This document shows, in pieces, positions 5,901-13,434 of a DNA stretch of 15,032 bases. The position numbers and the translations under genes are program-made. The notes under the pieces were generated by a model, which had not been told where the DNA came from, made no database searches, and saw only the letters and a program-made list of their open reading frames with translations. Location of the stretch: IMG/VR virus record IMGVR_UViG_2529293240_000016, one strand, 5' to 3'. The DNA comes from a virus. Lineage: Duplodnaviria; Heunggongvirae; Uroviricota; Caudoviricetes. The first letter of the stretch is position 1. Every line of letters starts with the position of its first letter.

Positions 5901-5926
5901 TTGTTCGTGGTTGTTCCACGTTGTTC
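5901..5926 (+). promoter_or_regulatory. Three helically phased TTGTTC repeats upstream of the capsid operon
   Basis: TTGTTC at 5901, 5911 and 5921 (exact 10-bp period); a similar array recurs at 13409-13434. Confidence 0.4.
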
Positions 5927-6140
5927 ACTGAGCGGATCGGCATATTTTACCCGAACTGAATCATGATTATTCTCGCCCGTGGTGCCAGGACGCTGGGGCC
6001 ACTTTCCCGCCTGTTAATGTGCTCGCCAATATTCATTACCAGGCGGGAAAACGATCGGTGCGATTACTGATTTCCTTATGAAAAACGGTTGAGTGTTTGC
6101 CGCGTCCTGGAGTTCCTTACTTAACCCCAGGACTTTTTTT

Positions 6141-7298
6141 ATGCAGAGAATAATCGAATTACGCCAGCAGAAAACCGCCATTAAAAATCAGATGCGCGAC
6201 ATGCTGGAGAACGCTGAAAAAGAAAACCGCAGTCTTAACGATGCTGAGGGCGCAAAATTTGACGAATTACGCGCTAAAGCTGAATCCCTCGATAAAGACA
6301 TTTCCCGCCTTGAAGCCATTGCAGACGAAGAGCGCAGCAAGCCAGGTAAAAGCAGCCAGACCACTGACCCCGCAGAACTACGCAACTACATTCTGACCGG
6401 TGAAACCCGCGCATTAAGTACAGGCGTTCCCGCTGATGGTGGTTATACCGTTATCCCTGAACTGAACACCGAAATCATGCGAATGCTGGCGGATGAATCC
6501 ACCATGCGCCGCATCTGTACCGTGAAGAAAATCAGCAGCAACGAGTTTAAGCAGCTTGTTTCCGCTGGCGGTGCGACCGTTAACCACGGTGAAGAGGGTA
6601 AGGCACGCGAACAGACCAGCACCCCGCAGATTAACGAGGTGAGCATTAAGCTGTATCCGGTCTATGCGTACCCGCGCACCACACAGGAAATCGTGGATTT
6701 TTCCGATGTGGACATCCTTTCATGGCTGACGGGTGAGATTGGCGACACCTTCACGGAAACCGAAGAAAGCGATCTGGTTGTGGGCGACGGTGACAAAAAA
6801 GCAAAAGGTTTTTTATCCGTACCCCGTGCAGAGAAGAACGACAAAGAGCGTGATTTTGGTACGTTGCAGGTAATTAAACCTTCCGAATCTCTGGCGTGGA
6901 CATCTGCGGACCCGCTGATCGACCAGAAATTTGCATTACGTAAAAAATACCGCAAAAACGCGGTCTGGGTGGTTAACTCCACGACGGCGGCAAAACTTCA
7001 GAAGGTGAAGAACGCGAACGGTGATTATATCTGGCGCAACCGTTTACAGGCGGGTGATCCTGATACGTTGCTGGGCCTTCCGGTCGAATATCTGGAGTTT
7101 ATGCCTGATAACGTTATTGCCCTGGGTGACTTCAAACGCGGTTACTACATTGTTGATCACGAAACAGGTGTTCGCACCAGACCGGACAACCTGACAGAAC
7201 CAGGATTCATCAAAATTTTCACGCAAAAATATTTAGGCGGTGGCGTGGTGGATTCGAACGCGATCAAGATTCTGGAACTGCCGGAAGACGACGATTAA
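6141..7298 (+). CDS. Major capsid protein, HK97 family, with N-terminal scaffolding-like coiled-coil domain
   Basis: About 385 aa; charged coiled-coil N-terminus followed by an HK97-fold-like body. Start is ambiguous: ATG 6141 (no clear SD) or GTG 6093 as in the ORF track. Confidence 0.85.
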   Translation: MQRIIELRQQKTAIKNQMRDMLENAEKENRSLNDAEGAKFDELRAKAESLDKDISRLEAIADEERSKPGKSSQTTDPAELRNYILTGETRALSTGVPADGGYTVIPELNTEIMRMLADESTMRRICTVKKISSNEFKQLVSAGGATVNHGEEGKAREQTSTPQINEVSIKLYPVYAYPRTTQEIVDFSDVDILSWLTGEIGDTFTETEESDLVVGDGDKKAKGFLSVPRAEKNDKERDFGTLQVIKPSESLAWTSADPLIDQKFALRKKYRKNAVWVVNSTTAAKLQKVKNANGDYIWRNRLQAGDPDTLLGLPVEYLEFMPDNVIALGDFKRGYYIVDHETGVRTRPDNLTEPGFIKIFTQKYLGGGVVDSNAIKILELPEDDD

Positions 7299-7308
7299 CA
7301 GCATACAG

Positions 7309-7337
7309 AAGGGGCTAAAAAGCCCCTTTAGTGTTTT
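7309..7337 (+). terminator. Hairpin/attenuator after the capsid gene
   Basis: AAGGGGCT-aaaa-AGCCCCTT followed by TAGTGTTTT; likely partial terminator. Confidence 0.45.
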
Positions 7338-7910
7338 ATGGGTGAAAAAATTATGAAGAGTATGGAAATCCGGTCATCGGAAATCACCACCAGCGGAGCC
7401 GGTACGCTGACGGGCTACGTTGTTCGCTGGGATAAGCTTTCAGAACTGTTATGGGGTGAGTTTTACGAAAAATTCCAGCGGGGGGCGTTTACTGAATGGC
7501 TTGCGGCGGGTAATGACGTTCGCGGCCTGTATGAGCATGACCACAGCATGTTACTGGGGCGCACCCGTTCCGGCACGCTGAAACTGGAAGAGGACGAAAC
7601 AGGGTTACGCTTTGAACTGACCCCACCGGATACCAGTACAGGGCGCGACGTTATCGAACTGGTTAAGCGTGGGGACATCTCGGGGATGAGCTTTGGCTTT
7701 CGCTCCCGTAAGGATGTATGGGATACCACAACAGATCCATGCGTGCGCACCGTGCTGGTGGCGGAACTGTACGAAATTACCGTTACATCGGTACCGGCTT
7801 ACCCCGATTCCGGCGTGGAGCTGGCCCGCCGTTCCCTGTATGAGCAGCACCCCGAAAAAATGCCGCGTGCGGATAATCGCCGCTGGTGGGCGGATTTAGC
7901 GGGGGTGTGA
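7338..7910 (+). CDS. Prohead maturation protease, HK97 family (S78-like)
   Basis: 190 aa; motifs GYVVRWDKLSE, EHDHS, GMSFGF; sits between capsid and portal. Alternative starts at 7353 or 7362. Confidence 0.85.
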   Translation: MGEKIMKSMEIRSSEITTSGAGTLTGYVVRWDKLSELLWGEFYEKFQRGAFTEWLAAGNDVRGLYEHDHSMLLGRTRSGTLKLEEDETGLRFELTPPDTSTGRDVIELVKRGDISGMSFGFRSRKDVWDTTTDPCVRTVLVAELYEITVTSVPAYPDSGVELARRSLYEQHPEKMPRADNRRWWADLAGV

Positions 7911-7911
7911 T

Positions 7912-12461: not shown

Positions 12462-12474
12462 TGAGGTCAGCAGC

Positions 12475-12756
12475 ATGACAGAAGCCGAAATACTGCGATT
12501 AATCCGCCGCGTCTCTGGAATCAGCCAGCAGGCTGACGAACAGACCACGCAGCCGGACAGCGTGACAGCCGAAAATTATGCGCGTGTTGTTGCTGAGGTG
12601 ATGCGCCGTGATGGTATCCAGCTTAATGATGCGGATATGCGCGACATACGGATCCGCGTTCTGGAAATGCTGGCCTACAATCGCCGCGTTGAACTGTATC
12701 GGGAGAAGGAGAAAATCACGTACCACTGGAAGAAGCCGGAGCGGTTACGGCGGTAA
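12475..12756 (+). CDS. Hypothetical protein (93 aa), last island ORF
   Basis: ATG with SD-like TGAGGT; charged protein; no recognisable motif. Confidence 0.45.
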   Translation: MTEAEILRLIRRVSGISQQADEQTTQPDSVTAENYARVVAEVMRRDGIQLNDADMRDIRIRVLEMLAYNRRVELYREKEKITYHWKKPERLRR

Positions 12757-13005
12757 CTCACTGAGATTAAAGCAAAGCGCAAAATTGCGCTGGCTACATC
12801 CCTCACATCTGAGGACTGTTAACCAGCAGGCCGGAATATATTCACAAACTACGAAATTTTCGCAGTTTAATTACTCGTCAGCTTAATCGCTAACCCGCTC
12901 TGATATTTTCGGAAACCTCAATTTGAGGAAGTCGGCGAGGTAACTGTTTGATATTCCCGATAGCGCAAAAATGCGCGGTCGGGCAGAATGACCACCACCT
13001 CAATC

Positions 13006-13040
13006 GTGACGGAGAGTGACAACCAGTGACACACCGTGAC
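13006..13040 (+). repeat. Four helically phased GTGAC direct repeats
   Basis: GTGAC at 13006, 13016, 13026 and 13036 (exact 10-bp period). Confidence 0.6.
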
Positions 13041-13408
13041 AAAAAGACGGTTTAACCGTTCATTAAAAATCGACGTGATTTTGTGCTTTCCGGATGACGT
13101 GGCCAACGTCATTTTTTAGCGAAAAATTCTGATTAAGGTCACTGGCTGAACGGTCATAATGACCACGCAGACCATCGAGGCAACCATAGCGATCATCGTT
13201 ACGGTTGGAGCTTTTCCGCCATTGGTGGAAAAGGTGCACATCTGGATCATCATTACGGTGATCAAGGGTATGTAAAACCCACCAGCCTGATTAAAGGTTA
13301 ACCGGAAAAAAATCCGGTAGCCCCGTTATGGGGATCCCCATATCGACATTAACGCCCCTCATGAATTGGTGCGCTTCCCCCTGGAAAGATTACCCGCCTG
13401 TATATTTC

Positions 13409-13434
13409 TTGTGTCTATTTGTTCCACGTTGTTT
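13409..13434 (+). repeat. Phased TTGT(G/T)T repeats, second copy of the 5901-5926 motif
   Basis: TTGTGT, TTGTTC, TTGTTT at 10-bp spacing; the 15-mer TTGTTCCACGTTGTT is shared with 5911-5925. Confidence 0.5.

What the first reader, a model, noticed from the sequence alone, without database searches (positions are those of the whole stretch)
5901..13434. Same 10-bp-phased TTGTTC motif at two sites 7.5 kb apart, bracketing the morphogenesis module
TTGTTCgtggTTGTTCcacgTTGTTCac at 5901-5928 and cTTGTGTctatTTGTTCcacgTTGTTTcat at 13409-13436 share the 15-mer TTGTTCCACGTTGTT. Helical phasing suggests cooperative binding of one protein on one DNA face. Candidates are a late-gene activator site, an initiator site analogous to the P4 ori1/crr pair, or recombinase arm sites. 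TTGTTCAC at 5921-5928 loosely resembles the P4 TGTTCACC iteron I recall.
Basis: seen in the sequence. Interest (0 to 1): 0.55.

Follow-up and report, generated by a model that had tools for sequence, protein, structure and literature searches.

The report
Excisionase-type binding arrays in a phage satellite
The two TTGTTC repeat clusters are real and are most likely docking arrays for the island's small AlpA excision and activator protein, one in the island's attachment-site arm and one in front of its capsid genes; this is a known type of control element, but it has not been mapped for this satellite family.

Summary
Three TTGTTC-type hexamers at an exact 10-bp period lie at 5901-5926 and at 13409-13434, and the two sites share the 15-mer TTGTTCCACGTTGTT, which is far beyond chance.

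The window is a degraded relative of EcCIEDL933, the prototype capsid-forming PICI, inserted between roxA and phoQ. Complete relatives carry the same array at four to five places:
- in both att arms, each time beside a tandem pair of GGTGTAGTYAAT;
- between int and alpA, inverted, 5-7 units;
- as an inverted pair before a small ORF;
- in front of the capsid operon (site 1).

Site 2 is the attR-arm copy.

The layout core, then 10-bp phased array, then tandem 12-bp pair, then int, matches KplE1 (mapped TorI sites GTTCG x3 at 10 bp), P4 and CP4-57. I therefore read the TTGTTC arrays as sites for AlpA (PF05930, about 44% identical to P4 Vis), which is both directionality factor and activator. I read GGTGTAGTYAAT as the integrase arm-type sites. 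Site 1 would link capsid and packaging gene expression to AlpA, as P2 Cox boxes do at the P4 late promoter.

The P4 ori1/crr idea is rejected: the island's origin iterons (TCTACC) lie elsewhere, and the arrays persist when the replicase is swapped.

No binding was tested. Confidence is about 0.6.

The parts
5901..5930 (+). Site 1: three 10-bp units (TTGTTCGTGG TTGTTCCACG TTGTTCACTG). Predicted AlpA-type array upstream of the capsid/packaging operon.
   Evidence: Present in all roughly 45 E. coli-type cf-PICI loci. Absent from the three canonical (non-capsid) PICIs with related int/alpA that were examined, L017-L019.
5889..5900 (+). TTTGTAAATTAT box directly 5' of the array. It is conserved across genera even where the array hexamer differs. 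Function unknown.
5860..5884 (+). Intrinsic terminator (AGCCGGAGCAATCCGGCT plus a T run) that closes the upstream operon 17 bp before site 1. An identical hairpin lies at about 5497-5514.
   Evidence: (family D11).
5582..5601 (-). Inverted two-unit array (TTGTGTCTGT TTGTTTCAGA on the minus strand) 15-34 bp upstream of the start of a 74-aa ORF (5616-5840).
   Evidence: Position-weight score 20.9, against a shuffle maximum of 18.4. Invariant in 4 islands.
6141..12461 (+). The operon that site 1 precedes: HK97-type capsid, prohead protease, portal, two head-tail connector genes, HNH, TerS and TerL (TerL is frameshifted here).
   Evidence: Pfam hits; RefSeq annotation of relatives.
13409..13438 (+). 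Site 2: three 10-bp units (TTGTGTCTAT TTGTTCCACG TTGTTTCATA). Predicted AlpA-type array in the P arm of attR.
   Evidence: (family D3).
13452..13475 (+). Tandem GGTGTAGTTAAT GGTGTAGTCAAT (12-bp period). Predicted integrase arm-type sites.
   Evidence: In L001 this motif occurs only in the two att arms. It has the same layout as the annotated P4 'attP arm sequence repeat' pairs. In L014 both arms changed together, along with the Int N-terminus.
13564..13575 (.). attR core GGACATATTTAT. It overlaps the phoQ stop codon and marks the right end of the island.
   Evidence: Comparison with the empty K-12 site and with attL of L001.

Best explanation
The TTGTTC repeats (consensus unit TTGTTYCACG, one unit per helical turn) are binding arrays for the island's AlpA protein. 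AlpA is a 62-aa winged-helix protein of the excisionase/Vis/TorI kind, encoded just left of this window. It would bind head to tail and cooperatively, and bend the DNA. In the att arms, of which site 2 is the attR copy, the array lies beside the integrase arm-type sites (tandem GGTGTAGTYAAT) and would help build the excisive intasome. Site 1 lies just after a terminator and about 40 bp upstream of a conserved -10-like element and a structured leader. There the same protein would switch on the capsid/packaging operon, so that excision and capsid production answer to one helper-induced regulator. Shown here: the arrays, their positions, their conservation and their specificity to the island. Inferred: the identity of the binding protein, and that site 1 activates rather than represses.
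For: (1) Array distribution. In complete relatives the same phased motif occurs upstream of int (4-5 units), between int and alpA (5-7 units, inverted), before orf74, before the capsid gene, and near attR. It occurs nowhere else in the islands or their flanks.
(2) Two motif classes share the arms. GGTGTAGTYAAT x2 is confined to the arms. The TTGTTC arrays also occur at promoter-proximal places, as expected of a regulator.
(3) Architecture matches known systems.
- In KplE1 attL the mapped TorI sites I3-I5 are GTTCG/GTTCG/GATCG at an exact 10-bp period. They abut the intS -35 and are followed by IntS arm-type sites and the intS ATG (PMC2951348; sequence).
- P4 has annotated tandem 12-bp arm repeats on both arms, plus a 4-unit 10-bp TCC array between the core and the int-proximal pair.
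- CP4-57 has the same layout.
(4) Protein family. AlpA is PF05930. It is about 44% identical to P4 Vis in alignment. P4 Vis is annotated 'excisionase and transcriptional regulator'.
(5) General rule. Directionality-factor sites are direct repeats one helical turn apart, and several such factors also regulate promoters: Apl (PMC7498355), RdfS (PMC11963761), and Cox, whose boxes lie upstream of P4 PLL (PMC3936717; cox boxes seen).
(6) Function of AlpA. AlpA is the required activator of Gram-negative PICIs. It activates its own promoter and triggers excision and replication (PMC6092414), and it is required for EcCIEDL933 induction (10.1101/2022.09.08.507074).
(7) Periodic conservation. In the int-alpA array of five alleles the ACAA cores are invariant while the spacers drift.
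(8) Lineage covariation.
- Islands with a different integrase plus an HTH_17 regulator carry TACYYC units in their arms (L004, L005, L070) and carry TTACCC x3 at the site-1 position (L003-5, L065, L067, L073).
- L071 has a divergent capsid protein (69% identity) but an AlpA-type regulator, and it has TTGTTC units at site 1.
Against: - No binding or expression data exist for these sites; the assignment rests on analogy and distribution.
- Int and AlpA travel together in nearly all islands, so covariation does not cleanly separate them.
- L070 is an exception. Its arm carries TACYYC units, but its site 1 is of the TGTKCG type, swapped in with an accessory-gene cassette.
- AlpA did not activate Pint in EcCICFT073 (PMC6092414) although an array sits just upstream of int. 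This is compatible with a purely architectural role there, but it is not predicted by a simple activator model.
- No sigma-70 consensus promoter was found next to site 1, and the transcription start is unknown.
- In the Erwinia and Citrobacter lineage the arm arrays have only two units.
Confidence: 0.6

Rival explanations
1. The TTGTTC arrays are the integrase's own arm-type sites, bound by the N-terminal Arm-DNA-bind_3 domain. The GGTGTAGTYAAT pairs would then belong to AlpA or to another factor.
For: Arrays flank the core on both arms and sit next to int. Int has an arm-binding domain. Tandem phased arm sites exist in lambda (own knowledge). Int and the arrays co-occur in all the E. coli islands.
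Against: Arrays also occur 1.3 kb and 7.5 kb from the core, at promoter-proximal places. In P4 the annotated arm repeats are tandem 12-bp pairs laid out exactly like GGTGTAGTYAAT, and in KplE1 the 10-bp GTTCG triplet is the TorI site, not the IntS site (PMC2951348). In L014 the GGTGTAGT pair changed in both arms together with the Int N-terminus (78% identity), while the TTGTTC units and AlpA stayed the same. In Gilliamella the Int is only 23% identical and has a different tandem pair, yet a TTGKTG-like phased array persists with a 45%-identical AlpA.
Confidence: 0.15
2. The arrays are read by a factor not encoded on the island. This could be a helper-phage excisionase-like protein, as P2 Cox acts on P4 PLL, or a host response regulator that binds direct repeats.
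For: P2 Cox boxes (3 x 10 bp) upstream of P4 PLL set the precedent (PMC3936717). alpA transcription is switched on by an unidentified helper function (PMC6092414), and the largest array lies upstream of alpA. Excisionase cross-talk between a PICI and its helper has been reported (PMC11773190).
Against: The array sequence changes with the island's own recombination and regulator module across genera, which argues for an island-encoded reader. The arrays sit inside the island's own att arms. Several unrelated helpers induce these islands (PMC6092414). The host flanks contain no such arrays, and the 10-bp period does not fit the 11-bp PhoP/PhoB-type boxes (own knowledge).
Confidence: 0.1
3. Site 1 is a passenger. 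It would be a copy of arm sequence left at a module junction when the capsid module was acquired, with no present function.
For: Site 1 lies at the left boundary of the module that distinguishes cf-PICIs from canonical PICIs. The site-1 cassette can be swapped between lineages (L070).
Against: All three units are kept in about 45 loci while the flanking sequence varies. A different hexamer (TTACCC) occupies the same position, with the same period and number, after the same conserved box in other genera. The spacing to the downstream conserved -10-like element and leader is similar, 36-41 bp.
Confidence: 0.1
4. The arrays are replication elements analogous to P4 ori1/crr, bound by the primase-helicase.
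For: TTGTTCAC at 5921-5928 resembles the P4 type I iteron TGTTCACC. There are two sites kilobases apart, as in P4.
Against: The island's iterons (TCTACC/GGTAGA, inverted sets around an AT-rich stretch) lie directly 3' of the primase gene. Genuine TGTTCACC iterons occupy that position in L019 and L006. The TTGTTC arrays are unchanged in islands with RepA or DUF927 replicases. Only one of the six units contains TTGTTCAC.
Confidence: 0.02

Closest known systems
TorI (directionality factor) sites I3-I5 in attL of prophage KplE1/CPS-53, with the IntS arm-type sites and the intS promoter
   Same: Three sites at an exact 10-bp period with a GTTC(G) core, lying between the att core and tandem integrase arm-type sites directly upstream of an outward-facing int gene. 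The integrase has the same Arm-DNA-bind_3 domain, and the factor is a small winged-helix protein (PMC2951348).
   Different: TorI is only about 23-26% identical to the PICI AlpA. TorI represses PintS and is not known to control structural genes. KplE1 has TorI sites on attL only, whereas here both arms carry arrays, plus three non-att locations.
P2 Cox and its cox boxes (P2 attP, P2 Pc, and upstream of the satellite P4 late promoter PLL); likewise 186 Apl
   Same: One small directionality factor uses arrays of direct repeats 10-11 bp apart both at the attachment site and at promoters. At P4 PLL three tandem 10-bp boxes mediate activation of a satellite's late transcription (PMC3936717, PMC7498355).
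   Different: The motif differs (TTAAAGNCA against TTGTTYCACG). Cox and Apl repress at their own promoters.
Satellite phage P4 Vis with the P4 attP arm repeats
   Same: Vis is the closest characterised homologue (about 44% identity in alignment) and is annotated as excisionase and transcriptional regulator. P4 attP has tandem 12-bp arm repeats on both arms, and a 10-bp phased array between the core and the int-proximal pair.
   Different: P4 makes no capsid of its own. The P4 units are TCC(G)-type. The published Vis sites could not be read in the held library, so the P4 array is my reading of the sequence.
P4 ori1/crr type I iterons (TGTTCACC)
   Same: A superficial resemblance of one unit (TTGTTCAC), and two clusters kilobases apart.
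   Different: The position, the lack of covariation with the replicase, and the unit sequence do not fit. The island has separate iterons next to its primase gene.

Membership tests
Binding array of a winged-helix recombination directionality factor (Xis/Cox/Apl/TorI/Vis type) | Three or more direct repeats spaced one helical turn (10-11 bp) apart, head to tail | tested here: met
   Exact 10-bp period, 3 units at each window site and 4-7 units at the int-proximal arrays.
Binding array of a winged-helix recombination directionality factor (Xis/Cox/Apl/TorI/Vis type) | An array lies within an att arm, next to integrase arm-type sites | tested here: met
   Site 2 is 130-155 bp from the attR core and 17 bp from the GGTGTAGTYAAT pair. 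The mirror arrangement is seen at attL of relatives.
Binding array of a winged-helix recombination directionality factor (Xis/Cox/Apl/TorI/Vis type) | The element encodes a small factor of this protein family | tested here: met
   The 62-aa AlpA of complete relatives hits PF05930 at E = 5e-18. It is homologous to P4 Vis and to PDB 8C3T, an 'AlpA family' protein. The gene lies outside this window.
Binding array of a winged-helix recombination directionality factor (Xis/Cox/Apl/TorI/Vis type) | Relaxed unit sequence with a conserved core | tested here: met
   TTGT is invariant, positions 5-10 are variable (matrix), and conservation is periodic across alleles.
Binding array of a winged-helix recombination directionality factor (Xis/Cox/Apl/TorI/Vis type) | Physical, cooperative binding and DNA bending by the factor; requirement for excision | not testable with these tools
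   Needs EMSA or footprinting and excision assays.
Integrase arm-type sites (P4-like heterobivalent tyrosine integrase) | Confined to the arms of attP | tested here: not met
   TTGTTC arrays also occur between int and alpA, before orf74 and before the capsid gene. GGTGTAGTYAAT does meet this feature.
Integrase arm-type sites (P4-like heterobivalent tyrosine integrase) | Layout as in P4: tandem 12-bp pairs on both arms, one pair directly upstream of int | tested here: not met
   Met by GGTGTAGTYAAT x2, not by the 10-bp TTGTTC arrays.
P4 ori1/crr iterons | Units match TGTTCACC, and the sequence tracks the replication initiator | tested here: not met
   One unit in six contains TTGTTCAC. The arrays are unchanged with primase, RepA or DUF927 replicases. 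Separate iterons lie 3' of the primase gene.
Capsid-forming PICI (EcCIEDL933 type), for the island as a whole | int-alpA-replicase module plus its own HK97-type capsid, protease, portal, connectors, HNH, TerS and TerL; no tail or lysis genes; about 15 kb; dedicated att site | tested here: met
   Pfam hits. Same roxA/phoQ site and gene order as EDL933. Description in 10.1101/2022.09.08.507074. This copy is degraded by IS1 in the primase gene and a terL frameshift.
Activator-dependent promoter (for site 1) | Activator sites upstream of a weak core promoter, with transcription dependent on the activator | tested here: inconclusive
   No consensus sigma-70 promoter was found. A conserved -10-like TATNTC lies 36-41 bp downstream of the array in all lineages. 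The transcription start and AlpA dependence are not testable here.

The most novel reading that the evidence does not exclude
The arrays, above all the 5-7-unit array upstream of alpA, could be the entry point for the still unidentified helper-phage signal. A helper excisionase-like protein would bind the same TTGTTC arrays, as P2 Cox does at P4 PLL. It would thereby fire alpA, excision and the capsid operon, which would make excisionase cross-talk the induction mechanism of Gram-negative PICIs.
Probability: 0.08. Interest if true: 0.7.

Novelty: new member of a known kind. Interest (0 to 1): 0.4.

Why it matters
AlpA is known genetically as the master switch of Gram-negative PICIs. I found no paper in the held library that defines where it binds. 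A concrete operator (TTGTTYCACG units, one per helical turn) and a map of its 4-5 locations would turn 'AlpA is required' into a testable circuit: excision at the arms, autoregulation upstream of alpA and, specific to capsid-forming islands, direct control of the capsid/packaging operon. It also gives a simple sequence signature for annotating att arms and late promoters in the 8-18% of E. coli genomes that carry such islands. The principle itself, a directionality factor that doubles as a regulator, is well established, so this is a useful extension and not a surprise.

Tried and rejected
1. P4-like origin. Rejected; see the ori/crr rival explanation.
2. P. aeruginosa AlpA antiterminator model (ABE GGGACG, Q-like protein with a helix-turn-helix around residues 128-142). 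It is a larger protein than the 62-aa PF05930 AlpA and shares only the name, so it is not applicable (PMC9371919).
3. Tandem-island or secondary att site at site 1. There is no GGTGTAGT pair or core copy there.
4. Host PhoP or other response-regulator boxes, suggested by the phoPQ neighbour. The arrays are retained at three other integration sites (tqsA, abgR/smrA, cspD/clpS), and the period is 10 bp, not 11.
5. Cross-genus test for a clean Int-versus-AlpA separation. Only partly informative. The Gilliamella island keeps a TTGKTG-like array with a 23%-identical Int, but the array is inverted and weak. L053 could not be interpreted.
6. Consensus promoter scan at site 1: nothing found.
7. Rfam search of the leader: no family.
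8. Search of deposited phage genomes for site 1 plus leader: no match.
9. Literature search for a mapped PICI AlpA site: none found in the held library.
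Full report
**The observation.** The sequence is as described. TTGTTC occurs at 5901, 5911 and 5921. The shared 15-mer TTGTTCCACGTTGTT occurs only at 5911 and 13419. With up to two mismatches the chance expectation is 0.03 matches, and 0 of 200 shuffles gave two. An exact hexamer triple at a 10-bp phase never appeared in 500 shuffles.

**What the window is.**
- Pfam and RefSeq annotation of near-identical relatives show an HK97-type capsid gene (6141-7298), prohead protease, portal, two connector genes, HNH (9751-10191), TerS and TerL, preceded by a D5/DUF5906 primase. The host gene phoQ lies at 13572-15032 on the minus strand.
- The same gene order at the same roxA/phoQ site is found in E. 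coli O157:H7 EDL933. That is EcCIEDL933, the prototype capsid-forming PICI (10.1101/2022.09.08.507074).
- This copy is degraded: IS1 splits the primase gene (about 2832-3529) and terL is frameshifted near 12150.
- int and alpA lie to the left of the window.
- Comparison with the empty K-12 site puts the attR core at 13564-13575, overlapping the phoQ stop codon.

In complete relatives (L001, L002, L014, L015, L016) the 10-bp phased motif occurs at these places:
- directly upstream of int (4-5 units);
- between int and alpA on the opposite strand (5-7 units);
- upstream of the capsid gene (site 1);
- near attR (site 2).

A matrix built from the 15 units gives the consensus TTGTTCCACG. It also finds an inverted two-unit site at window 5582-5601, just before a 74-aa ORF, invariant in four islands. 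In about 45 E. coli-type loci from genomes and IMG/VR, every array is present whenever its region is on the contig, and no other clusters occur. In 108.5 kb of E. coli flanking chromosome there is no two-unit hit of at least 17 bits, against 8-11 per island.

**The att arms.** A 75-bp imperfect direct repeat links the int-proximal arm and the attR arm (family D3). Each copy holds a TTGTTC array followed by a tandem pair GGTGTAGTYAAT with a 12-bp period. In L001 this pair occurs only in the two arms. In the window it lies at 13452-13475, 17 bp after site 2. In L014, integrated in tqsA, the pair reads GGTGTAGTCACT in the int-proximal arm and GGTGTAGTCACT GGTGTAGTCATT in the other. Its Int N-terminus is 78% identical to that of L001, while AlpA (97%) and the TTGTTC units are unchanged.

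**Comparison with characterised systems.**
- KplE1. The experimentally mutated TorI sites I3-I5 are described as three sites separated by 2 nt with cores GTTCG/GTTCG/GATCG. They abut the intS -35 and are followed by IntS arm-type sites (PMC2951348). In the K-12 sequence they read caGTTCGtcatgGTTCGcttcaGATCGt, an exact 10-bp period.
- P4. The record annotates 'attP arm sequence repeat' as tandem 12-bp pairs on both arms, one pair directly upstream of int. Between the core and that pair I see four TCC units at a 10-bp period.
- CP4-57. This is the home of the founding AlpA, and it shows GTCCCGcgaaGTCCGA followed by AGGCCCATTGAT AGGCCCAACGAA before intA.
- The order core, 10-bp array, tandem pair, int is thus shared by all four.
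- The literature states that directionality-factor sites are direct repeats one helical turn apart, bound cooperatively with bending. Several such factors also regulate promoters: 186 Apl (PMC7498355), RdfS (PMC11963761) and P2 Cox, including activation of P4 PLL through boxes 10-11 bp apart (PMC3936717). The three P4 cox boxes are visible at 9176-9205.
- The PICI AlpA is PF05930, about 44% identical to P4 Vis in alignment, and related to a solved 'AlpA family' structure, 8C3T. The integrase carries Arm-DNA-bind_3, as does IntS.

**Assignment.** I therefore assign the TTGTTC arrays to AlpA and the GGTGTAGTYAAT pairs to Int. This fits the genetics. AlpA activates its own promoter and a downstream PICI gene, its over-expression triggers excision and replication, and it does not activate Pint (PMC6092414). 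alpA is required for EcCIEDL933 induction (10.1101/2022.09.08.507074). Across five alleles of the int-alpA spacer the ACAA cores are invariant at 10-bp intervals while the spacers drift.

**Site 1.**
- It lies 17 bp after an intrinsic terminator (5860-5877 plus a T run) and 215 bp before the capsid ATG.
- No consensus sigma-70 promoter is present.
- A conserved -10-like TATNTC lies 36-41 bp downstream of the array in all lineages. It is followed by two hairpins with compensatory changes, in which 11 of 19 pairs change on both sides.
- The three canonical PICIs examined that share the int/alpA family but carry other packaging genes (L017, L018, L019) have the arm arrays. L017 and L018 also have the alpA-upstream array. 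None has an array before its packaging genes. Site 1 is therefore specific to the capsid-forming islands.
- In cf-PICIs of Rosenbergiella, Citrobacter and Erwinia the same place holds the conserved box TTTGTAAATTAT followed by three 10-bp phased TTACCC-type units.
- The Citrobacter and Erwinia islands carry a different integrase and an HTH_17 regulator. Their arms carry TACYYC pairs next to a different tandem pair, GTATCCTATAG GTATCCT.
- L071 has a divergent capsid protein (69% identity) but an AlpA-type regulator, and it has TTGTGC/TTGTTC/TTGTTC.
- The site-1 motif thus follows the recombination and regulator module, not the capsid lineage. There is one exception: in L070 an accessory-gene cassette brought in a TGTKCG-type site 1.

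**The rejected origin idea.** Inverted TCTACC/GGTAGA iterons lie directly 3' of the primase gene, at about 4450-4690. Real TGTTCACC iterons sit at that position in L019 and L006. The TTGTTC arrays are unchanged where the replicase is RepA (L015) or DUF927 (EDL933).

**Limits.**
- Nothing here shows binding.
- Int and AlpA are nearly always co-inherited, so the separation rests on layout, on precedent, on the L014 co-change and on a weak Gilliamella case.
- Whether site 1 activates is inferred from AlpA's known activator role and the Cox/PLL precedent.
- I found no paper in the held library that maps PICI AlpA sites.

**Verdict.** The feature is real, island-specific and conserved. It is best explained as AlpA-type directionality-factor arrays, with one extra copy wired to the capsid operon. 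This makes it a new member of a known kind and moderately interesting.

Noticed in passing
window 5979-6047 (and 6104-6140): The leader between site 1 and the capsid ATG holds two adjacent hairpins kept by compensatory changes across genera. The first is GUGGUGCCAG-GACG-CUGGGGCCAC; the second is CCCGCCUG...CAGGCGGG. Of 19 pairs, 11 change on both sides. A terminator-like GTCCTGG-16 nt-CCAGGAC-T7 lies immediately before the ATG and contains the likely Shine-Dalgarno sequence. No Rfam family matches.
   Followed up: partly
window 4450-4690: Probable replication origin: direct and inverted TCTACC/GGTAGA iterons just downstream of the primase gene. Other islands have P4-type TGTTCACC iterons at the same position (L019 17350-17580, L006 9214-9360), so the iteron type appears to follow the replicase allele.
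   Followed up: partly
window 13006-13041: A second, different phased array: GTGACG/GTGACA/GTGACA/GTGACA at an exact 10-bp period, in a roughly 650-bp stretch without annotated genes between orf93 and site 2. It is present in L001 and L018 and absent from L014, L016, L017 and L019. Its reader and role are unknown.
   Followed up: partly
window 5497-5514 and 5860-5877: The same terminator hairpin (AGCCGGAGCAATCCGGCT plus T run) occurs twice, flanking the 74-aa ORF (5616-5840). Each copy is followed by a TTGTT-type array, one inverted and one direct.
   Followed up: partly
window 5889-5900: The box TTTGTAAATTAT is conserved in front of the array in E. coli, Rosenbergiella, Citrobacter and Erwinia islands regardless of the array hexamer. 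A similar TTTTTTGTAATT follows the primase stop codon (4446-4457). Unexplained.
   Followed up: no
window 2832-3529; about 12126-12234: IS1 (insA/insB) interrupts the primase gene and terL is frameshifted, so this copy of the island is probably immobile. The PerC and SSB genes present in relatives are reduced to fragments around 5313-5474.
   Followed up: partly
window 13525-13551: A 14-bp tandem duplication (GACTTGACTTGATT x2) between the arm-type pair and the attR core, absent from L001.
   Followed up: no
L070 5757-6598 versus L004 and L068: A swappable cassette carries a divergent accessory gene (157 aa, minus strand) together with the site-1 array. It produces an island whose site-1 units do not match its arm units.
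   Followed up: partly
L068 3575-4405: Three tandem AlpA-like paralogues (79, 81 and 71 aa) lie downstream of int in one cf-PICI lineage.
   Followed up: no
L001 6617-6656: A second, degenerate inverted array (ACACAA/ACACAT/ACGCAA/ACACGA, 10-bp period) lies 30-70 bp upstream of the alpA start codon, in addition to the 5-unit array about 300 bp upstream.
   Followed up: partly
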